Part shown: positions 34,914-42,255 of the stretch, piece by piece
Layout of the letters: each line of letters begins with the position of its first letter
Position numbering within the stretch: the stretch's first letter is position 1
Origin: a virus
Direction: 5' to 3' (one strand)
DNA length: 64,000 nucleotides
IMG/VR virus record: IMGVR_UViG_3300028821_000038
Location: 98,315-162,314 of that record
Made by a program: the position numbers and the translations under genes
Notes under the pieces: model-generated
Seen by the model: only the letters and a program-made list of their open reading frames with translations
Told to the model about the DNA's origin: nothing
The model's database searches: none

Positions 34914-36173
34914 ATGTCGATTTCAGATAGAGTCAATCATGATGTTAGGTTTTTTCATGACATTTGGGAGGCAGAGGAATACGATACGGCTAGTGTTAAA
35001 ATACCACATGAATATAACCCAAGGGATAACTATGTAGTGGTAGAGTTCAAGATGCCGTCCATAAAAAGGCAGATACCACAAAGATCCTTTGATGCTATTG
35101 TAGATCAGATGTTTAATATTGGAATGCATCAGTTGAATTATAAAAAAGTAGACAATTCTGAATTTCACACCATGCTAAAGAAGGAGGGGTGGGGTAACAT
35201 TACTAAAATCAGGCGTAGATTTGGAGATGATGTCTATACTTTCTATATCTCTGAAAAGAGGAAGATGAGGGGTTTTGTCGAGGATTATTATATGGCTATA
35301 ATGGTATTTCTTGGGTATCCCCAAAGAGATTATATGCGTCGGGCACCATGCTACAACATTGATCCAAAATGTATTAAGTGTTACGATTTTCTCGCAAGCC
35401 CCGTACTTGATTGGCTGGATGACCCAGAGCCCTATAAAACCACCCTGTATAAATACTTCTTTACACTGCCCGGGGAATTACAGCGTCTATGTATTGCGTA
35501 CTCTAGGGAGATAGCCCGAACACCGGGGACATGCTTTTTGCCGGAGGAACCAGATTACTATATCGTAGATGAGAGTATGAAGTATTTTAATGGTGGCACA
35601 GACAATATTGAAAAGTGGAAAAATATGGTTTTATCAGAAAGGCGGCTTGAAGATAGGATAATGTACCACCTTGAGGTGGGGCCTCCAGATAGGGTTGATT
35701 ATGGAGATGGACCTTCTTTGCCGCCAGATGGAGAGGAGGGTACCGTCAGGAAGCAGTCATTTAGGGGATATGGTTCTCCAGTGATGCTAACTAGATATAA
35801 TTATCGTACTAGTGATACGGTTCCAGATGTGCTTTTGGATGCAATAAGTAGAAATGACTTTGACGCACTTTGGTATGCAGATATGAGGTCATTCAATGCA
35901 AGAAACTCGATAAGTAAGTATTTGTTTAACCATTGGCAGGATGTATGTATGGTCGCAGACGATGGGTGGGTGTGTGGTTGGAATATGGACCAAACTATCG
36001 GCGTTGCATCGGATTTGAGCGGGTATTCAGAGGAGCAGGCTATTCAACTTGCTACTGCATACGGATACGAGACAAGCAGTGGTAGCACCGACAGGATATA
36101 CACTTTGCAGCAAGACAAAATTCAGGGCTATGAATATGAGGAATATGTTGAAAAATATATTAAGCCCGCGTAA
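34914..36173 (+). CDS. putative virion protein
   Basis: N-terminal DVRFFHD resembles the shared module. Confidence 0.65.
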   Translation: MSISDRVNHDVRFFHDIWEAEEYDTASVKIPHEYNPRDNYVVVEFKMPSIKRQIPQRSFDAIVDQMFNIGMHQLNYKKVDNSEFHTMLKKEGWGNITKIRRRFGDDVYTFYISEKRKMRGFVEDYYMAIMVFLGYPQRDYMRRAPCYNIDPKCIKCYDFLASPVLDWLDDPEPYKTTLYKYFFTLPGELQRLCIAYSREIARTPGTCFLPEEPDYYIVDESMKYFNGGTDNIEKWKNMVLSERRLEDRIMYHLEVGPPDRVDYGDGPSLPPDGEEGTVRKQSFRGYGSPVMLTRYNYRTSDTVPDVLLDAISRNDFDALWYADMRSFNARNSISKYLFNHWQDVCMVADDGWVCGWNMDQTIGVASDLSGYSEEQAIQLATAYGYETSSGSTDRIYTLQQDKIQGYEYEEYVEKYIKPA

Positions 36174-36215
36174 AAATAGATACAATATACTATAAAAACC
36201 CAATAGGAGACTGGT

Positions 36216-37256
36216 ATGATTGATATACAAAACGATTCAAATTTTGCATTCCTGAATATGGCATATGGAGGCGAGATGCCAATAGAGCTGGAGAAGGTTG
36301 CAATGGAAGCCTCTCAAGGCTATGATTTAGATAGATATGTTGATGGTGCATTTGCAGACCAGGAAAATAGAAAATTCCCTATATTCACTCCTGAAATGGC
36401 GGTGCTTAGCGCAGCATATATGCAGCATCAGGATATAGATCCTCTTGTGAAAGAGGCTTGCGAGAGAGCTTTACAGGATTGGGGTATAGAAGGTATATCT
36501 TTGGATAAACAGGAGAGAGAAGAACAATACCTGGAACTTCCCAAGGAGGCCTTTCTATTGAAAGAGGCTCAAAAATTCCCGGTGATAGACAGAGACACTC
36601 TTGAAAAATCAGCATATGCAGTCAAGTCTTCACTGGGACAAATGGACATTCCGCAAAGAGTAGAAGCTTGTACGAATCTTTACAAGAAAGCTGTTTATGA
36701 ATACGATGTTGATCCAACCGAGCTGGGAGAGGATATCGTTAGCTATGCACAGGAGGCTCCATGTAGCCTAGTGAAGCTTGCTATGTCCATCAATGAGAGA
36801 TACGCAGAAACAGGCGAGCAGGGGTATCAAGATTACCTCGAAAAATTAAGTGCTTATGCTACGCAACACAAGGATGAATCATATATCTTTGATAAGTCGC
36901 TAATGTCTGGTATGGCCGTCGAACTATATTACCTAGACAAAGAGGCTGGCATACAGGGTGAGTTTGATGCAATTAGAGATGTATTTAACTCACCATTCTA
37001 TGTGAATGAAAACGGGGAGCTTGAAAAGGCCGCCACAGTAAGTAGTGTGGTGATTGGGGATTATTATATCCCAGAGCAAGCTCTTGAGAAAGTGGCACGA
37101 GAAGAGTTTGCGGAAGCATTCCCAGGGCTTGATGAAGAAGTGTATGTAGGAGACGATCTTGACCCAGATAAGCTGGTACAGGTAGTGGACGAAGTTTTGA
37201 TTATCCCGGAGTCTAAAAATCAAGTAGGGGAGTTTTTGAATCAGTATGTTAACTAA
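36216..37256 (+). CDS. acidic multi-KxA protein, putative scaffold/head-assembly protein
   Basis: LEKVA, LEKSA, LVKLA, LEKLS, LDKEA, LEKAA, LEKVA; internal repeat AFAD..RKFPI / AFLL..QKFPV. Confidence 0.7.
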   Translation: MIDIQNDSNFAFLNMAYGGEMPIELEKVAMEASQGYDLDRYVDGAFADQENRKFPIFTPEMAVLSAAYMQHQDIDPLVKEACERALQDWGIEGISLDKQEREEQYLELPKEAFLLKEAQKFPVIDRDTLEKSAYAVKSSLGQMDIPQRVEACTNLYKKAVYEYDVDPTELGEDIVSYAQEAPCSLVKLAMSINERYAETGEQGYQDYLEKLSAYATQHKDESYIFDKSLMSGMAVELYYLDKEAGIQGEFDAIRDVFNSPFYVNENGELEKAATVSSVVIGDYYIPEQALEKVAREEFAEAFPGLDEEVYVGDDLDPDKLVQVVDEVLIIPESKNQVGEFLNQYVN

Positions 37257-38202
37257 GGCGACATATAGTTCTCCCGATATAGAGGTTTCTCAAGCAGGAA
37301 ACCTCTCATGCATTATAAATGTTGATTTTGGGGAGGCTTTACAAAAATACGGCTCTATGGCAATGTTTTTTGTATCGGTAGATGACCATATTATTGATAC
37401 AGAATACCGTGAGTTGGCTGCAGAGTTTTCTTTAGATGCCGAATATGTGTTCAATAATGAGGATGTGCAAAATGTGCACTATCTGAAATATGTAAATTTT
37501 GTACCGTGCATAGAGGAGTTTGGATGTCGAAATATAGAGCATGAGCCTGATCCTTTTGGGGATGAGAGTGGCTTATTGCTGATTACCGGCAACAATACAT
37601 GCGAAGATGCCTGCAAAAATTATACTGTACATGAATACATAGAAGGGTATGCCGACGGTATATATAATCAGGCGATAGATTTAGGAAGTGTCAAGAATAC
37701 AAATCGATACCTCAAGATATACAATCTTGAATTGTTTGAGGGGATGACTTTTTCTATGTGGTTCAATTTGCCTGATGGGGCATCTAGTGATGTTGAGTAT
37801 TTTACATTCTTTTCACTAGCTGATTACTTTAAGGTGAAACATCTTGCGCTTCAGTATATTCCGTCTAGTGAAATGATTCGTATTTTTGTAAACGGGACAG
37901 CATATAGCGGAAAGGTAGGGAGTATTCCAGAGGGGGAGTGGCATTTTATCTCCCTTGTTATAGATAACACAGTGGCAACAGTATTCATAAATAACTCCAG
38001 GTTCGAGATTCCCATAAAGCAGATGTCATTGAATTACTCCAAAAACAATGTATTTATTGTGGCACAGGAACAGGATAGGGTTGGTGGATATTTCGATGAA
38101 AACCAATGTTTGTTTGGCAAAATAGACCAGATTAGAATATTTAAAAAGCCCTTAAGTTGTGATAGAATTGCAATGATTAGGGAAGAGAAAATAAAATATT
38201 AG
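37246..38202 (+). CDS. LamG-domain protein
   Basis: PDPFGDES; TFSMWFN; WHFISLV; GKIDQIRIFKKPLS. Confidence 0.75.
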   Translation: MLTKATYSSPDIEVSQAGNLSCIINVDFGEALQKYGSMAMFFVSVDDHIIDTEYRELAAEFSLDAEYVFNNEDVQNVHYLKYVNFVPCIEEFGCRNIEHEPDPFGDESGLLLITGNNTCEDACKNYTVHEYIEGYADGIYNQAIDLGSVKNTNRYLKIYNLELFEGMTFSMWFNLPDGASSDVEYFTFFSLADYFKVKHLALQYIPSSEMIRIFVNGTAYSGKVGSIPEGEWHFISLVIDNTVATVFINNSRFEIPIKQMSLNYSKNNVFIVAQEQDRVGGYFDENQCLFGKIDQIRIFKKPLSCDRIAMIREEKIKY

Positions 38203-38205
38203 AGG

Positions 38206-38234
38206 TTGACAACAAGTAGCAAATTTGTTATACT
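38206..38234 (+). promoter_or_regulatory. IS607 left-end promoter
   Basis: TTGACA-17 bp-TATACT with extended TG. Confidence 0.75.
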
Positions 38235-38263
38235 TCTTTAACAAATGTTAATAGGAGTAACAA

Positions 38264-38851
38264 ATGTACGTACCTTCCAGGGTGGCGGCCCGTCGCCTGG
38301 GAGTGCATCCAAATACTTTAAGGAGGTGGGCAGATGAAGGCAAGATCGAAGCAATCAGAACAGAATCCGGCCAGCGTCGCTATGATGTGGACGCCTACCT
38401 CGGGAAGCACTCCCGCCTCCGCACTGTCTGCTATTGCCGCGTCAGTAGTTATAAGCAAAAAGACGACCTCGAACGGCAGGTCGAGTTCATGCGAAAGCGA
38501 TACCCCGAAGCGGAAATTGTCAAGGACGTCGCCTCGGGGCTCAACTTCCGCCGCAAAGGGCTTAAAGCCATATTGGAATCCGCGCTTGGGGGAGATCGCA
38601 TCGAGCTTGTGGTTGCCCACCGAGACCGACTTGCACGCTTCGGCTTCGACCTTATTGAATGGATTATCGAACGCAGCGGTGGCCGGGTCGTGGTTCTGGA
38701 CAAGACTGAGCTTTCCCCGGAACAGGAACTCACAAAAGACCTGCTCAGTATCCTACACGTCTTCTCTGCCCGGCTACACGGACTTAGAAGTTACAAAGAC
38801 CAGGTTAAACAGGCTCTATCCGACAAAGGAGCAACGAAAGATTCTGCTTGA
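38264..38851 (+). CDS. tnpA: IS607 transposase (MerR-like HTH plus serine recombinase)
   Basis: AARRLGVHPNTLRRW HTH; YCRVSS.KQKDDLERQ catalytic motif; DRLARFG. Confidence 0.95.
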   Translation: MYVPSRVAARRLGVHPNTLRRWADEGKIEAIRTESGQRRYDVDAYLGKHSRLRTVCYCRVSSYKQKDDLERQVEFMRKRYPEAEIVKDVASGLNFRRKGLKAILESALGGDRIELVVAHRDRLARFGFDLIEWIIERSGGRVVVLDKTELSPEQELTKDLLSILHVFSARLHGLRSYKDQVKQALSDKGATKDSA

Positions 38852-39920
38852 ATGGATCGGGGCGTCCCGCTTCGTTTATAATCTTACTGTCGAAAAGCTG
38901 CAAGCCCATAGCGGGCCTACTCCCAATTGGATGGCGTTCTGGAAAAACGAGGTCGCCCCGGAGCTTCCGGAGTGGTGCGATCCGATTTCATTCCAGGTCA
39001 AAAAGATCGCCGTCCGGGATGCCATCAATGCGTTGAAAGAGGGGAAAAAGCGAGTCAAAAAAGGCATTATTCCGTACTTCAAGCTCCACTTCCGCAGCAG
39101 AAAGAGCCCCGTGCAATCCTGCTTTATTCCTTCAAGCGCCATCAAAGAATCGGGAATCTATCCCAGGGTTTCCGGCAAGGGCCTTCGGTACGCCGAGCCT
39201 TTGCCGGAGTCCCCTATGGACTCCCGCCTGATCTTCCGTGGTGGAAAATTCTACCTTGCCTTACCGAGAAAAGAAGTATGCGCCGTAGCCGAGAACCAAG
39301 GGCGGCGTATCGTCTCTATCGACCCGGGCATCCGTAGTTTTCACACCTTCTACTCCCCAATCGGAGTGGCCGGAAGCATCGGGCGTGACGACTTTTCCCG
39401 TATCGTGCGCCTTGCTCAGCATCTTGACGATCTGCTCTCCAGGACTTCCAAAGCAGGCAAGCAGCGTCGCCGGAGAATGTACCGGGCTGCGGATCGTATG
39501 CGCGAAAAGATTCGTAACCTGATCGACGAGCTACACCACAAGACCGCCCGGTTTTACGTCGATAATTTTGATGTGATTCTGCTGCCGGCCTTCGAGACCT
39601 CGGAGATGGCGCGAAAAGCCACTCGGAAGATTCGCAGCAAGTCGGTCCGGTCTATGATGACCTTCGCGCATTACCGCTTCGCCCAGTTTTTGAAGCATAA
39701 AGCGTTCGAGACCGGAAAAGTCGTTCTAACCGTTACCGAAGAGTACACCTCCAAAACGAATCCATATACTGGAGAGCTGATGACTATCGGTTCCCGCCGC
39801 AGGGTTCGGATCGGTGACGATTGGGTTGATAGAGACCACTTAGGCGCATTCGGGATTTTCCTGAAAGCTTTGGGAGATTTCCCCGACCACTTTCGGGTGG
39901 TCGCAGTTAACGAAAGTTAA
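38334..39920 (+). CDS. tnpB: TnpB RNA-guided nuclease, Fanzor2-like
   Basis: RLYPTKEQ; RuvC-I SIDPG; ILLP.F; VTEEYTSK; DRD; AGGAGG 7 nt before ATG 38334. Confidence 0.9.
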   Translation: MKARSKQSEQNPASVAMMWTPTSGSTPASALSAIAASVVISKKTTSNGRSSSCESDTPKRKLSRTSPRGSTSAAKGLKPYWNPRLGEIASSLWLPTETDLHASASTLLNGLSNAAVAGSWFWTRLSFPRNRNSQKTCSVSYTSSLPGYTDLEVTKTRLNRLYPTKEQRKILLEWIGASRFVYNLTVEKLQAHSGPTPNWMAFWKNEVAPELPEWCDPISFQVKKIAVRDAINALKEGKKRVKKGIIPYFKLHFRSRKSPVQSCFIPSSAIKESGIYPRVSGKGLRYAEPLPESPMDSRLIFRGGKFYLALPRKEVCAVAENQGRRIVSIDPGIRSFHTFYSPIGVAGSIGRDDFSRIVRLAQHLDDLLSRTSKAGKQRRRRMYRAADRMREKIRNLIDELHHKTARFYVDNFDVILLPAFETSEMARKATRKIRSKSVRSMMTFAHYRFAQFLKHKAFETGKVVLTVTEEYTSKTNPYTGELMTIGSRRRVRIGDDWVDRDHLGAFGIFLKALGDFPDHFRVVAVNES

Positions 39921-39940
39921 GAAAAAAGGATCGGACTGAT

Positions 39941-40675
39941 ATGACGGGAGCTGCAAAAGATATAATTAGAATTTCATACAGGCTTGATACACTAAAGCAA
40001 TTCATAGGAAACATCAAGAAAGAGTCATATTTGGCCGCTTTTAGTGATGAGAATTTTTCCGGATTTGTGTTGTACTATGTTGCAGATAAATATTTCGGTG
40101 ATATATATGAGCTTGAGATAGAAACGATAAACATCACAATGGAAAAATACCCCAAAAACAGAGACAAGCTAAAAGCTCTTGTGTCTACTATGCAAAGCGA
40201 TGCTGTATGGACTAATGCTTTTGCTTTTTCTACTGCGGTATCTGCCTTTAATAATCTGGATATAGATCCAACCCTGATCCCTTCGAGAAAACCCGATGAG
40301 TTAGCGTGGGGAATGGCTAATATAGCAGGTCTTGAAGGTGCCATAGGTATGCCATTCAAAACAAAGGTACTTGGTACAATCGCGGCATCCTTAATGGATG
40401 ATGGATGGACTGCACCTCCGCTATTCTTGATGTTCAAAAATGTGAGTGATTACTTTGACAATGATGAGTATATTGAAAATATAAAGCAGACCATAGGCCA
40501 TCTAACCCTAAAGGATATAGTATCCATGAATGATTTTTCAGGACTAGGGATAGATGGAAGGCCAGATCTTAAAAATTATTTAGCCAGAACACAGGAGTAC
40601 GCACATGGGATATTGAAGAAATATAACAAGTTGCAATTTGATTGGGAAACTGCAATTAGTGGCGGCGTTGCATAA
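39941..40675 (+). CDS. hypothetical protein upstream of terminase
   Basis: 244-aa ORF. Confidence 0.7.
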   Translation: MTGAAKDIIRISYRLDTLKQFIGNIKKESYLAAFSDENFSGFVLYYVADKYFGDIYELEIETINITMEKYPKNRDKLKALVSTMQSDAVWTNAFAFSTAVSAFNNLDIDPTLIPSRKPDELAWGMANIAGLEGAIGMPFKTKVLGTIAASLMDDGWTAPPLFLMFKNVSDYFDNDEYIENIKQTIGHLTLKDIVSMNDFSGLGIDGRPDLKNYLARTQEYAHGILKKYNKLQFDWETAISGGVA

Positions 40676-40686
40676 GGAGAATAGGT

Positions 40687-42255
40687 ATGCCTAAGAGGAT
40701 TACCCAGTCACAGTTTGCTCAGGCTACATTGGAACTTAAAGGGAAGCCTTTTGGGTTTACTCTGCACGCGCCCTTTAGGGAGATATACGATTGGCCCAAG
40801 AGGCGAATATTACTCAAGACTGCACGACAGGTTGGGAAATCTACCTTTTTGTCTGCTCATTCTCTTACAAAATGTGCTACCAAAAGTCATAGGAGAGTAT
40901 TTTATGCTTCCACTTCAGAGAAGCAGGCCCGGGAATTTGCCAGGGTAAAACTAAATGAATTGCTTAGCAGAAGTCCAAGAATAAGAAATATTCTTTTAAA
41001 TAAGAGTGTGGGGGATATAAACGATTCCGTTTTTGAGAAGCAATTTTCAAATGGCTCAGGAATCACTGTTTCATATATGAAAGAAAATGCGGACCGAACC
41101 CGCGGGTACTCAGCTGATGATTTGATGCTCGATGAAGTGCAGGATATGGATCCGTCCGAAATTCCGATTGTAGAAGAGATCCTGTCTGCTTCACTGGATC
41201 CTTCCAGGTTTTATACTGGAACCCCTAAGACACTCGATAACCATATTGAGCACAAATGGCAACTATCTACCAAGCACGAAGTATTTTTTAGATGCAAATC
41301 ATGTCGCAAGCTCAATAGTATTGGCTATAGAAATATAGGCAAAAAGGGGCCAATATGCACTAGTTGTGGTGGTCTATTGGATATAGCTGGAGAACATATA
41401 TGGGTGCCAACATATGATAGGACGGGGCCAGAGCCCTACTATCTTGGTGCTAGGGTTCCACAGCCAGCTCTATTGCTACATGCGGGCTTTCCCGAAAAAT
41501 GGAAAGATTTGCTCTTTAAATATGAAACATATGACGAATCAAAATTCTCAAATGAGGTGCTGGGCTTATCTCATAGTACTGGTACTAGATTTCTCACTCT
41601 CGATGACATTATCAACCATTGTAACGGTGAGGTGTGCCTGGACATGCCTACAGAGCGGACATTCCGACTGTATGATATGCTTGTAATGGGAATAGACTGG
41701 TCTGGGGATGGTGTGAGTGAGGTTTCAAGAAATGCTGTTGTCATTTTAGGGAGGAGAGCAGGTGATCCAAAACAGAGATTGCAAGTGGTTTACAAGAAAA
41801 TATTCCCTAGGGGGGATATGCTGAAGATTGTAAAAGACATAGTGATGATTGCCAATTTGTTCAGGGTAAGGGTTGTGGGCGCAGATGCAGGAGAGGGTGC
41901 ACTAAACAACTCGTATATAGCTGATTCACTGGGTGCCCACAGGGTACAGCCCTTTAGATATGGGGCATATGATCTTCCTATTAGAATGTCCAAGGATATG
42001 CGGACAGTATATCTGGATAAGACTAGCGCAATAGATGATATTTTCAAGAAGATTAAAGAGGGGCAATTTATATTTCCCCCATATGAAACATTCAAACAGG
42101 AGACTAGTGATATCTTGGCTGAATTTGAAATGGTTACCAACAGCGGGAGAAAGGTGTATACTCACAGTCCAAACGATCCGGACGACTGGCTTCACGCTTT
42201 GACATTTGCATACAATGCGTACAAGATTGCGGTAGGAGCGGTCAAGTTCTATTAA
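40687..42255 (+). CDS. terL: terminase large subunit
   Basis: Walker A ARQVGKST, Walker B LMLDE, GTP coupling motif, CxxC pairs, nuclease GIDW ... PDDWLHA. Confidence 0.9.
   Translation: MPKRITQSQFAQATLELKGKPFGFTLHAPFREIYDWPKRRILLKTARQVGKSTFLSAHSLTKCATKSHRRVFYASTSEKQAREFARVKLNELLSRSPRIRNILLNKSVGDINDSVFEKQFSNGSGITVSYMKENADRTRGYSADDLMLDEVQDMDPSEIPIVEEILSASLDPSRFYTGTPKTLDNHIEHKWQLSTKHEVFFRCKSCRKLNSIGYRNIGKKGPICTSCGGLLDIAGEHIWVPTYDRTGPEPYYLGARVPQPALLLHAGFPEKWKDLLFKYETYDESKFSNEVLGLSHSTGTRFLTLDDIINHCNGEVCLDMPTERTFRLYDMLVMGIDWSGDGVSEVSRNAVVILGRRAGDPKQRLQVVYKKIFPRGDMLKIVKDIVMIANLFRVRVVGADAGEGALNNSYIADSLGAHRVQPFRYGAYDLPIRMSKDMRTVYLDKTSAIDDIFKKIKEGQFIFPPYETFKQETSDILAEFEMVTNSGRKVYTHSPNDPDDWLHALTFAYNAYKIAVGAVKFY

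What the first reader, a model, noticed from the sequence alone, without database searches (positions are those of the whole stretch)
38334..39920. Fanzor2-like TnpB overprinted on tnpA, with rearranged RuvC and no zinc finger
Seen: the tnpB frame is open across 518 nt of tnpA, and its ATG has a perfect AGGAGG 7 nt upstream formed by tnpA AGG-AGG Arg codons. The overlapped part encodes KPYWN...LWLPTETD...SWF. The usual RuvC-II Glu position reads ILLP, with a Glu in VTEEYTSK. The CxxC pairs normally following TSKT are absent (TSKTNPYTG), while both Asp motifs remain. Known: IS607 TnpBs with a relocated catalytic Glu are the prokaryotic relatives of eukaryotic Fanzor2. Inference: a Zn-finger-less pro-Fanzor carried by a phage.
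Basis: partly seen in the sequence, partly recalled or inferred. Interest (0 to 1): 0.7.

Follow-up and report, generated by a model that had tools for sequence, protein, structure and literature searches.

The report
Nuclease domain written inside transposase gene
A 1.7-kb jumping gene (IS607) in a vent phage encodes a Fanzor-related RNA-guided DNA cutter whose first ~150 codons are read in a second frame from inside the transposase gene; relatives show this double coding is old and selected, and that it encodes the N-terminal domain seen in the solved Fanzor2 structure.

Summary
The tnpB frame is open from ATG 38334, 518 nt inside tnpA. AGGAGG, made of two tnpA Arg codons, lies 7 nt upstream. 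The protein has DPG, ILLP at the usual Glu site, a relocated Glu (E469) and no CxxC pairs.

This is not chance. In 44 non-redundant relatives the +1 frame of tnpA has 60 stops against 238 expected, while ten IS607 tnpA genes without such a TnpB show no depletion. tnpA wobble sites are constrained exactly where the extension is conserved. The internal ATG and AGG Arg codons are both enriched.

The extension (residues 78-150) matches the N-terminal domain of mimivirus Fanzor2 (PDB 9b0l) by profile and by predicted structure. Its KPYWN motif also heads virus Fanzor2-like proteins that have no tnpA, so it is a real protein segment.

Zinc-finger-bearing cyanobacterial pro-Fanzors share the overlap. 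The zinc-finger-less group is one clade nested among them.

The likeliest reading is that the Fanzor2 N-terminal domain arose by overprinting the IS607 recombinase gene. I found no paper that says so. This scan has reported the same arrangement on other DNA. Translation and nuclease activity are untested.

The parts
38204..38205 (+). Left junction GG (the recombination or target dinucleotide)
   Evidence: GG|TTGA recurs at the left end of relatives, and GG also ends the right end.
38206..38263 (+). Left end of the IS. It holds a sigma-70-like promoter, TTGACA-17-TATACT (38206-38234), and the tnpA Shine-Dalgarno GGAG (38254-38257).
   Evidence: The promoter scan scores 11 of 12 with a TG extension. 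TTGAC is conserved at relatives' left ends. No terminal inverted repeats were found.
38264..38851 (+). tnpA, the IS607 serine transposase (195 aa): an N-terminal MerR-type HTH followed by the resolvase catalytic domain
   Evidence: Pfam MerR and Resolvase. NCBIfam NF033518 scores 187 bits against a cut-off of 110.
38321..38326 (+). Internal Shine-Dalgarno AGGAGG, formed by tnpA Arg20-Arg21 codons, 7 nt before the tnpB ATG
   Evidence: Read from the sequence. Across relatives AGG makes up 42% of Arg codons at this motif against 8% elsewhere in tnpA (Fisher 8e-11).
38334..39920 (+). Long tnpB ORF (528 aa plus stop), in the +1 frame relative to tnpA
   Evidence: Its length and catalytic residues (D330, E469, D501) run collinear with ApmFz2 (520 aa; D324, E467, D501; PMC11832414).
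38334..38564 (+). Leader, aa 1-77: poorly conserved, predicted disordered, basic
   Evidence: pLDDT is about 30. 58% of residues are S/T/P/A/G, with 12 K+R against 3 D+E.
38565..38783 (+). Overprinted N-terminal domain, aa 78-150 (KPYWN, LWLPTETD, SWF), encoded inside tnpA codons about 101-174
   Evidence: W81, L92, L94, P95, S119 and W120 are invariant in 48 sequences. pLDDT reaches 89. The model aligns structurally to 9b0l residues 53-130. Profile alignment places SWF on the SWY of L79. hhalign to N-termini that have no tnpA gives 89% probability.
38784..39917 (+). Canonical TnpB core (WED, REC, RuvC, TNB)
   Evidence: Pfam HTH_OrfB_IS605 and Cas12f1-like_TNB. Canonical TnpB and Cas12f structures align from model residue 151 onward.
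39321..39329 (+). RuvC-I DPG (catalytic D330)
   Evidence: Invariant D330, P331, G332.
39576..39587 (+). ILLP at the canonical RuvC-II Glu position (the Glu is lost)
   Evidence: P418 is invariant.
39738..39740 (+). Relocated catalytic Glu, E469
   Evidence: Invariant. It aligns with the Glu of NEYLTTKT in L79, which is E467 (PMC11832414).
39747..39827 (+). TNB segment without zinc-finger cysteines (aa 472-498)
   Evidence: No Cys at any of the four positions here or in the clade. Pfam PF07282 still matches at 30.8 bits against a 26.3 cut-off. pLDDT is 84-89.
39834..39836 (+). RuvC-III catalytic D501
   Evidence: Invariant R500 and D501. Aligns to L79 D501.
39735..39934 (+). Candidate omega-RNA scaffold over the tnpB 3' end and right end, with hairpins at 39844-39868, 39872-39884, 39885-39902 and 39907-39920. 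The 5' limit is arbitrary: it is where my fold began.
   Evidence: RNAalifold on 35 relatives finds two hairpins, and 9 of 13 pairs show compensatory changes. The single-sequence fold has z = -2.3. There is no RNA-seq.
39921..39934 (+). Right-end terminus GAAAAAAGGATCGG. The IS ends at GG 39933-39934, and the guide would begin at 39935.
   Evidence: AAAAAGTATCGG is conserved at the ends of relatives, after which the sequences diverge.

Best explanation
Positions 38206-39934 are an intact 1,729-bp IS607-family insertion sequence in a phage genome. It was inserted at a GG six bases upstream of the start of the gene that precedes the terminase.

Its tnpB belongs to the DPG plus relocated-Glu lineage that also contains the cyanobacterial pro-Fanzors and the Fanzor2 proteins of eukaryotic viruses. 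Within that lineage it sits in a large subclade that lost the C4 zinc finger once.

The nuclease is made as a long form. Ribosomes start at an ATG (38334) embedded in the HTH-coding part of tnpA, using a Shine-Dalgarno sequence built from tnpA Arg codons. They read the +1 frame through the rest of tnpA. This yields a basic, disordered leader (aa 1-77) and a structured N-terminal domain (aa 78-150), followed by the canonical TnpB core.

By homology with ApmFz2, that domain packs on the RuvC lobe (the 'RuvC-R' element) and on the REC-WED side, and helps hold the omega-RNA and target DNA. The RNA comes from the tnpB 3' end and right end, and its guide would be the flank that begins at 39935.

Shown here: the dual coding is under selection, and the extension corresponds to the Fanzor2 N-terminal domain.
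Inferred: the exact start codon, the role of the domain, RNA-guided cleavage, and the claim that the domain arose de novo by overprinting tnpA.
For: 1. Clade-wide open frame. In all 80 genome loci recovered, tnpB is in the +1 frame of tnpA. In most it is open about 150-180 codons upstream of the canonical start, with 350-650 nt of overlap in loci not cut by a contig end.

2. Stop depletion. In 44 non-redundant tnpA genes the +1 frame has 60 stops against 238 expected from synonymous shuffles. The +2 frame has 496 against 563. Ten IS607 tnpA genes from the same cyanobacterial genomes that are not followed by a DPG/relocated-Glu TnpB (several sit beside canonical TnpBs) have 153 against 142. The canonical tnpB frames seen there open -34 to +14 nt from the tnpA stop.

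3. Constraint on synonymous sites. Four-fold sites of tnpA have 1.39 bits of entropy against 1.75 in the non-overlapped tnpB core (p = 7e-10). Entropy is normal (about 1.8 bits) in the first 20 codons, before the ATG. It is lowest at TnpA 93-118 and 139-174, which is where the extension is conserved.

4. Start signals. A +1-frame ATG lies at tnpA nt 45-95 in 37 of 44 loci against 21.3 expected. AGG is 42% of Arg codons at TLRRW against 8% elsewhere.

5. Homology to the Fanzor2 N-terminal domain.
- The profile against the PDB hits 9b0l at E 1.7e-40, with the alignment starting at SWF = L79 SWY, residue 78 onward.
- The AlphaFold2 model (no templates) aligns to 9b0l over model 77-518 = chain 53-518, with 413 residues aligned and Z 25.7. 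Every canonical TnpB or Cas12f aligns only from model residue 151.

6. The peptide is conserved where no tnpA overlaps it. Examples are L173 (GC 0.28; KPFWN...FWIP...SWY), L191/L195 (RPFWSQKCQEISRILPW), and the 432-aa proteins on L178/L185, which begin M(T)LKPWWS. hhalign gives 89% probability, E 2.3e-6.

7. Zinc-finger-bearing cyanobacterial pro-Fanzors (L089, L112-L116) have 558-607-aa open frames over tnpA with the same motifs.

8. Phylogeny. The relocated-Glu clade is separated from canonical TnpB at 100% SH-aLRT. The zinc-finger-less rows form one clade (92%) nested among zinc-finger-bearing ones.

9. The N-terminal-domain profile finds 1,384 clusters among 1.84 billion representatives.

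10. IS anatomy. The ends are GG|TTGAC... and ...ATCGG|, with no terminal inverted repeats and a promoter in the left end. Hairpins in the tnpB 3' end covary.
Against: - There is no direct evidence of translation (no Ribo-seq, no mass spectrometry) and none of nuclease activity or an omega-RNA.
- The start codon is inferred. About a sixth of relatives lack an ATG in the homologous window, and some have ATG, GTG or TTG closer to the core. Initiation may therefore vary, or may use another mechanism.
- Sequence similarity of the extension to ApmFz2 is thin. In the HMM alignment it rests mainly on SW(F/Y), and in hhalign on a 24-column motif.
- The structural match rests on a predicted model whose extension has mixed confidence: pLDDT 44-89, and below 50 for aa 98-109. 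I could not inspect per-residue alignments or PAE.
- In this subclade the 'thumb' equivalent is not basic.
- The shuffle control preserves codon usage but not dinucleotide context across codon boundaries.
- The tree is a quick search with several long branches.
Confidence: 0.8

Rival explanations
1. The N-terminal domain is real, but it is reached by programmed +1 ribosomal frameshifting from the tnpA frame. This would give a fusion of the TnpA HTH, the N-terminal domain and TnpB, rather than internal initiation at ATG 38334.
For: No ordinary start codon lies near the canonical TnpB N-terminus. Fusion by frameshift is a common strategy in insertion sequences (established for IS1 and IS3). Seven of 44 relatives lack an ATG in the homologous window. 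One relative (P0069) is called as an HTH-TnpB fusion.
Against: The +1-frame ATG and an SD-like AGG-rich motif are both enriched at one homologous place. The +1 frame typically opens only a few codons before that ATG, which a frameshift further downstream would not require. I saw no conserved slippery motif, but I did not search for one systematically. Virus proteins with no tnpA start directly at the KPYWN motif.
Confidence: 0.1
2. The N-terminal domain is real, but translation starts at a different internal codon. Candidates are the ATG-ATG at aa 17-18 (38382-38387) or a TTG/GTG before aa 78. In that case the AGGAGG-ATG pair at 38321-38336 is a by-product of the TLRRW...DE codons.
For: Residues 1-77 are poorly conserved and predicted disordered. 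Proteins with no tnpA begin 2-3 residues before KPYWN. About half of loci would carry an ATG in this window by chance.
Against: This copy has a perfect SD with 7-nt spacing. AGG codons are enriched 5-fold at that motif. The length from ATG 38334 (528 aa) is collinear with ApmFz2 (520 aa), including a disordered basic leader of 53-64 aa (PMC11832414, PMC10530073).
Confidence: 0.15
3. The long open frame is a compositional accident of a GC-rich insert. On this view the real TnpB starts at Met200, as the automatic gene call has it (329 aa), or at a non-canonical codon near aa 150.
For: The insert is 52-59% GC in a 35-45% GC phage. Two antisense frames of 94-100 aa are also open within tnpA. The gene caller chose Met200 (P0003).
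Against: Stops are depleted 4-fold across 44 diverged relatives, including ones at 37-45% GC. There is no depletion in the +2 frame or in control IS607 tnpA genes. Synonymous sites are constrained. The extension has invariant residues. It matches the Fanzor2 N-terminal domain and is conserved without tnpA. A start at Met200 would remove the first WED strand and the HTH_OrfB_IS605 region.
Confidence: 0.03
4. This particular copy is an inert passenger: both genes look intact, but the element is no longer active in the phage.
For: The virus record holds a single copy. No empty site or second copy was found. GC content differs strongly from the host phage.
Against: Both ORFs are uninterrupted and all catalytic and invariant residues are present. 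The ends, promoter and SD sequences are intact. Activity cannot be judged from sequence alone.
Confidence: 0.15

Closest known systems
Acanthamoeba polyphaga mimivirus Fanzor2 (ApmFz2 / TnpB-like protein L79; PDB 9b0l; PMC11832414)
   Same: It is the best solved relative by sequence and by predicted fold. Both have DPG and the relocated Glu, and both have an N-terminal domain ahead of the WED strand. Length and catalytic positions are almost the same: 528 against 520 aa, and D330/E469/D501 against D324/E467/D501. Both have a disordered basic leader and are linked to an IS607 TnpA.
   Different: ApmFz2 has a C4 zinc finger, a strongly basic 'thumb' and a working NLS, and it sits in a virus of amoebae. 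The window's protein has no zinc-finger cysteines and a non-basic thumb region, and it sits in a phage. Identity is only about 20%. I could not check whether L79 itself overlaps its tnpA.
Cyanobacterial pro-Fanzors (Yoon et al. 2023, PMC10711439); also called TnpB2 or RIIr branches (PMC10691335)
   Same: They share the DPG and relocated-Glu fingerprint and the IS607 TnpA partner. As shown here, they also share the same tnpA-overlapping N-terminal extension with the same motifs. In the tree they fall in the same clade as the window's protein.
   Different: Pro-Fanzors were defined with a regex that demands CxxC...CxxC, and this protein and its subclade lack all four cysteines. Identity is 33-38%. 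Pro-Fanzors also carry a basic insert just before the core.
Canonical IS607 TnpB elements (Glu at the canonical RuvC-II position)
   Same: The transposon layout is the same: HTH-serine recombinase tnpA followed by tnpB on the same strand, GG junctions and no inverted repeats.
   Different: In the controls, tnpB opens within -34 to +14 nt of the tnpA stop, and the +1 frame of tnpA has the expected number of stops. These elements have no N-terminal domain, no DPG and no relocated Glu. NCBIfam IS607_TnpB scores only 17 bits against a 350-bit cut-off.
ISDra2 TnpB (PDB 8h1j, 8exa)
   Same: The WED-REC-RuvC-TNB core aligns (Z 23-25, model residues 151-520). The omega-RNA is expected from the 3' end.
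   Different: ISDra2 TnpB has no N-terminal domain, keeps the canonical Glu and the zinc finger, and is partnered with a Y1 transposase.
Zinc-finger-less TnpB branches such as RIIIr-4 (Altae-Tran et al. 2023, PMC10691335)
   Same: Loss of the C4 zinc finger across a whole branch is already documented in TnpB.
   Different: RIIIr-4 has a RuvC-III rearrangement, whereas here the rearrangement is in RuvC-II and the branch is IS607-linked. I could not map this clade onto that paper's branch names.

Membership tests
IS607-family insertion sequence | TnpA is a serine recombinase with an N-terminal MerR-type HTH and a C-terminal catalytic domain | tested here: met
   Pfam MerR plus Resolvase. NCBIfam NF033518 scores 187 bits against a cut-off of 110.
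IS607-family insertion sequence | No terminal inverted repeats; ends joined to the flanks at a short identical core (GG) | tested here: met
   No inverted repeat links the two ends. The ends are GG|TTGAC... and ...ATCGG|, and both are conserved in relatives.
IS607-family insertion sequence | tnpB lies downstream of tnpA on the same strand | tested here: met
TnpB RNA-guided endonuclease | RuvC D-E-D triad on a WED-REC-RuvC-TNB fold | tested here: met
   D330, E469 (relocated) and D501 are invariant. Predicted fold: Z 23-25 to ISDra2 TnpB. NCBIfam guided_TnpB scores 99.1 bits against a cut-off of 100, just below.
TnpB RNA-guided endonuclease | C4 zinc finger between RuvC-II and RuvC-III | tested here: not met
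   No Cys at any of the four positions, here or in the subclade. This feature is known to be lost in some TnpB branches (PMC10691335).
TnpB RNA-guided endonuclease | Omega-RNA (reRNA) encoded over the tnpB 3' end and right end | tested here: inconclusive
   Conserved hairpins show compensatory changes, and the fold has z = -2.3. There is no Rfam match and no RNA data.
TnpB RNA-guided endonuclease | RNA-guided, TAM-dependent DNA cleavage | not testable with these tools
   Needs biochemistry.
pro-Fanzor (Yoon et al. 2023) | DPG motif at RuvC-I | tested here: met
   SIDPGIR; D330, P331 and G332 are invariant.
pro-Fanzor (Yoon et al. 2023) | Glu six residues before the first zinc-finger Cys position, in place of the canonical Glu | tested here: met
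   E469 is followed by six residues and then N476, where the Cys would be. ILLP occupies the canonical site.
pro-Fanzor (Yoon et al. 2023) | CxxC x(12-18) CxxC zinc finger, as required by the defining regex | tested here: not met
   the regex is quoted from PMC10711439.
pro-Fanzor (Yoon et al. 2023) | Groups with Fanzor2 rather than with canonical TnpB; IS607 TnpA partner | tested here: met
Fanzor2 | Encoded in a eukaryote or a virus of eukaryotes | tested here: not met
   The context is a phage: terminase large subunit, phrog_675. The nearest relative is in a Campylobacterota MAG.
Fanzor2 | Structured N-terminal domain (RuvC-R plus thumb) ahead of the WED domain | tested here: met
   Model residues 77-150 align to 9b0l residues 53-130. 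The profile alignment starts at SWF = SWY. This rests on a predicted model, not a solved structure, and the thumb is not basic here.

The most novel reading that the evidence does not exclude
The 'unique' N-terminal domain of Fanzor2 (RuvC-R plus thumb), and possibly the disordered basic leader that later became its NLS, was born de novo in bacteria. It arose by overprinting the +1 frame of the IS607 serine-recombinase gene, before the lineage entered eukaryotic viruses.

The nested start site, with an SD and ATG inside the tnpA HTH codons, would also tie the translation of nuclease and transposase together on one mRNA.

If this holds, database models of more than a thousand TnpB clusters are N-terminally truncated. 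Experiments that use annotated 'short' pro-Fanzor-type TnpBs would then lack a functional domain.
Probability: 0.6. Interest if true: 0.88.

Novelty: new variant of a known kind. Interest (0 to 1): 0.8.

Why it matters
TnpB and Fanzor are the ancestors of Cas12 and are under active development as compact genome editors.

The papers I could search treat the Fanzor2 N-terminal domain as unique, or as a eukaryote-side acquisition (PMC11832414, PMC10432273). They define pro-Fanzors in a way that excludes the zinc-finger-less clade (PMC10711439).

The evidence here says three things.
- The domain is prokaryotic and widespread, found in 1,384 clusters.
- It is encoded in about 220 nt of the transposase catalytic-domain coding sequence, read in another frame.
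- Gene callers therefore routinely miss it. This phage's own call is 329 aa instead of 528.

This is one of the clearer cases of a functional domain arising by overprinting in a cellular mobile element. It gives a concrete origin for a structural feature of a solved RNA-guided nuclease, and it supplies testable full-length sequences for a compact, zinc-finger-free nuclease family. The nested start also suggests a built-in link between transposase and nuclease expression.

Tried and rejected
- Rfam, E-value mode, over 38000-40200: only a chance miRNA-like hit at E 0.34, and no omega-RNA family.
- Pfam and NCBIfam on the extension alone (aa 1-155): no family.
- Exact search of IMG/VR for the reconstructed empty site (25 nt spanning the junction): no match. 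The insertion is therefore inferred from the conserved ends and the GC shift, not from an empty-site relative.
- Search of IMG/VR with a 71-residue stretch of L79, taken from the alignment printed, to fetch the mimivirus IS607 and test whether L79 overlaps its tnpA: no relative confirmed. That question stays open here.
- PHROGs on the four neighbouring phage ORFs: no family except the terminase.
- RNAalifold on the 230-nt right-end alignment resolved only two of the four hairpins visible by eye. The variable hairpins are misaligned by MAFFT. I did not build a covariance model.
- hhalign between the bacterial extension and the N-termini that have no tnpA aligned only 24 columns. The SWF region of the short chlorovirus-type proteins appears to be deleted.
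- I considered a TnpA-TnpB frameshift fusion and a chance open frame. Both are listed as rivals and judged less likely.
It was re-run using references only.
Full report
**Observation**

The window holds a GC-rich island (0.52-0.59 GC against 0.35-0.45 in the flanks) between about 38200 and 39940. It contains two genes.
- tnpA is at 38264-38851 (195 aa). It matches Pfam MerR HTH plus Resolvase, and NCBIfam IS607 transposase at 187 bits against a cut-off of 110.
- A second frame, +1 relative to tnpA, is open from ATG 38334 to TAA 39920 (528 aa).

- The overlap is 518 nt.
- AGGAGG at 38321-38326 is made of the two Arg codons of the TnpA TLRRW motif and lies 7 nt before the ATG.
- KPYWN, LWLPTETD and SWF are in the overlapped part.
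- SIDPG is present, ILLP sits at the canonical RuvC-II Glu position, and TEEYTSK carries the relocated Glu.
- TSKTNPYTG has no cysteines.
- DRDH is present.

Pfam places the canonical TnpB N-terminus (HTH_OrfB_IS605) at aa 160-188. No ATG, GTG or TTG lies between aa 116 and Met200. The automatic gene call for this record starts at Met200 (329 aa, P0003), which would cut off the first WED strand.

**Is the open frame chance?**

A word-index search found 933 homologues, and many of them are called at 500-535 aa. In all 80 loci recovered from reference genomes tnpB is in the +1 frame of tnpA. In most it stays open about 150-180 codons upstream of the canonical start. The hosts include large sulfur bacteria, Chromatiaceae, filamentous cyanobacteria, Chloroflexota and Poribacteria.

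Several tests on 44 non-redundant tnpA genes (45-70% identical) point the same way.
- Stop depletion. The +1 frame holds 60 stops against 238 expected from shuffles that keep the TnpA protein and its codon usage. The +2 frame holds 496 against 563.
- Negative control. Ten IS607 tnpA genes from the same cyanobacterial genomes that are not followed by a DPG/relocated-Glu TnpB (several sit beside canonical TnpBs) have 153 +1-frame stops against 142 expected. The canonical tnpB frames seen there open -34 to +14 nt from the tnpA stop.
- Synonymous constraint. Four-fold degenerate sites of tnpA are less variable than those of the non-overlapped tnpB core (1.39 against 1.75 bits, p = 7e-10). They are unconstrained in the first 20 codons. 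They are most constrained at TnpA 93-118 and 139-174, which are the codons that spell KPYWN...LWLPTETD and SWF in the other frame.
- Invariant residues. In 48 long forms W81, L92, L94, P95, S119 and W120 never vary.

**Start signals**

A +1-frame ATG lies at tnpA nt 45-95 in 37 of 44 loci, against 21.3 expected. The Arg codons of TLRRW just upstream are AGG in 42% of cases against 8% elsewhere in tnpA (odds ratio 8.6, p = 8e-11). So the SD-plus-ATG seen in this window is a recurrent design rather than an accident. It is not universal, however, and the true start has not been shown.

**What the extension is**

- The best solved relative of the whole protein is mimivirus TnpB-like protein L79, which is Fanzor2 (9b0l). 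E is 2e-19 for the single sequence and 1.7e-40 for the profile. The profile alignment begins in the extension, with SWF on L79 SWY at residue 78 onward.
- An AlphaFold2 model built from the 48-sequence alignment (mean pLDDT 76) predicts three regions. Residues 1-77 are disordered. Residues 78-97 are well ordered, with a helix at 83-91. Residues 110-150 are partly ordered, with two strands.
- Foldseek ranks 9b0l first (E 4e-21). The second aligner matches model 77-518 to chain 53-518 (413 residues, Z 25.7). All canonical TnpB and Cas12f structures align only from model residue 151.
[quoted passage not shown] It consists of RuvC-R (65-91), which completes the RuvC fold and touches the omega-RNA, and a basic thumb (109-130) on the target DNA. 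Residues 1-53 are a disordered NLS (PMC11832414).
- The window's protein is collinear with it: 528 against 520 aa, and D330/E469/D501 against D324/E467/D501.

**The decisive control: conservation without tnpA**

Several virus contigs carry zinc-finger-bearing relatives with no tnpA over the N-terminus, and the motif is still there.
- L173 (GC 0.28) reads ILKPFWN...FWIP...SWY.
- L191 and L195 read RIRPFWSQKCQEISRILPW.
- The 432-aa proteins on L178 and L185 start M(T)LKPWWS. Their contigs are 368,683 and 330,611 bp, which from memory match chloroviruses NY-2A and PBCV-1.

Profile-profile comparison of the bacterial extension with these N-termini gives 89% probability, E 2.3e-6. Conservation of the peptide therefore cannot be a side-effect of TnpA constraint. 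It is a translated, selected protein segment whose functional part begins at KPYWN.

**Breadth and phylogeny**

- Cyanobacterial relatives at 33-38% identity have DPG, the relocated Glu and both CxxC pairs, so they are pro-Fanzors in the published sense. They also have 558-607-aa frames open across tnpA, with KPYWD...EIS and NSWFS, plus a basic insert before the core.
- A giant-virus-binned contig (L192, with one in-frame stop) and L176 and L168 show the same overlap.
- A profile of the extension alone finds 1,384 clusters (726 at E <= 1e-10) among 1.84 billion representatives.
- In a quick maximum-likelihood tree of 52 cores, the DPG/relocated-Glu clade is separated from canonical TnpBs at 100% SH-aLRT. 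The zinc-finger-less proteins form one clade (92%) nested among zinc-finger-bearing ones, so the finger was probably lost once. The window's protein pairs with one from a Campylobacterota MAG (61% identity), which suits a vent phage.
- The regex that defined pro-Fanzors requires CxxC...CxxC (PMC10711439), so this subclade would have been missed. Zinc-finger loss in other TnpB branches is documented (PMC10691335).
- Despite the loss, Pfam's TNB model still matches, and the segment is predicted with pLDDT 84-89.

**Anatomy of the element**

- The left end is GG|TTGACAAC, with GG at 38204-38205.
- The right end is ...GAAAAAAGGATCGG|, with GG at 39933-39934. Relatives share GGTTGA... and AAAAAGTATCGG, and diverge immediately outside them. 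Their sizes are 1.69-1.87 kb.
- The element is therefore 38206-39934 (1,729 bp) and has no terminal inverted repeats.
- The left end starts with a near-consensus promoter, TTGACA-17-TATACT.
- The last ~100 nt of tnpB (39844-39920) form four hairpins. Two of them are recovered by RNAalifold, with compensatory changes at wobble positions in 9 of 13 pairs. This fits an omega-RNA scaffold ending at the right end, with the guide beginning at 39935. It is inferred, not shown.
- Removing the element would leave ...TATTAGA-GG-ACTGATATG. The IS therefore sits in the GG of the likely ribosome-binding site of ORF 39941-40675, which is the gene before the terminase large subunit (40687-42255). The right end supplies a new AAGGA.

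**Mechanism proposed**

One transcript runs from the left-end promoter. tnpA is translated from 38264, with GGAG 6 nt upstream. The nuclease is translated from 38334 in the +1 frame. Its N-terminal domain packs on the RuvC lobe and the REC-WED side as in ApmFz2, and the RNP uses the right-end RNA to cut empty sites.

Shown: selection on the dual coding, correspondence of the extension to the Fanzor2 domain, lineage membership, zinc-finger absence, and the IS ends.
Inferred: the start codon, the role of the domain, the RNA, and the activity.

The serine-recombinase catalytic domain is ancient, and control IS607 tnpA genes have an ordinary +1 frame. The nuclease domain must therefore be the younger reading, created by overprinting.

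**Literature and the scan**

Full-text searches found no paper describing a tnpA-overprinted N-terminal domain, and neither did reading the main Fanzor and TnpB papers. Saito et al. describe the N-terminal extension as acquired by Fanzor2 (PMC10432273). The library is incomplete, so absence there is not proof of novelty.

After I had reached these conclusions I queried the scan's own notes. They show the same arrangement reported and followed up on several other genomes, both phages and giant viruses. This window is one more instance, not the first sighting within the scan.

**Verdict**

I class the finding as a new variant of a known kind: a pro-Fanzor-lineage IS607 TnpB that lacks the zinc finger and has a conserved N-terminal domain overprinted on tnpA. 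Interest 0.8.

Noticed in passing
window 38206-38234: The IS left end begins with a near-consensus sigma-70 promoter (TTGACA, 17 nt, TATACT, with a TG extension; 11 of 12). The conserved TTGAC of relatives' left ends may therefore double as the -35 box.
   Followed up: partly
window 39921-39943: The IS sits in the GG of the probable ribosome-binding site of ORF 39941-40675, the gene just before the terminase large subunit. The right end (…AAAAAAGGATCGG) supplies a replacement AAGGA 11 nt upstream of that ATG.
   Followed up: partly
window 39312-39325 and 39823-39836: The codons around the two catalytic aspartates (VSIDP and WVDRD) are 93% reverse-complementary over 14 nt. This could be chance or a long-range RNA pairing.
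   Followed up: no
window 38318-38620 and 38449-38733, minus strand: Two antisense frames of 100 and 94 aa are also open inside tnpA. They probably reflect GC-rich composition, but I did not test them across relatives.
   Followed up: no
P0069: A 375-aa relative carries MerR-HTH Pfam domains fused to the TnpB domains. It may be a deletion or frameshift derivative joining the TnpA HTH to TnpB.
   Followed up: no
L156 and L171 (virus contigs, GC 0.31-0.34): These are zinc-finger-less relatives in which only the C-terminal remnant of tnpA survives, yet the nuclease frame still reads from the KPYWN-like motif through NSWF. They look like tnpA-less derivatives that keep the N-terminal domain.
   Followed up: partly
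L057:4395-4624: One Okeania copy has a 24-nt perfect hairpin insert inside the conserved 3' hairpin region of tnpB, which lengthens the putative omega-RNA stem.
   Followed up: no
L220 (G002:C1:2160057-2163581): This is a solo tnpA of the same family (57% identity) with no tnpB downstream. It still shows +1-frame stop depletion (2 against 6.5 expected), probably a relic of the former overlap.
   Followed up: no
window 34914-38202 and 39941-40675: Four phage ORFs flanking the IS (419, 346, 318 and 244 aa) have no PHROG family.
   Followed up: no
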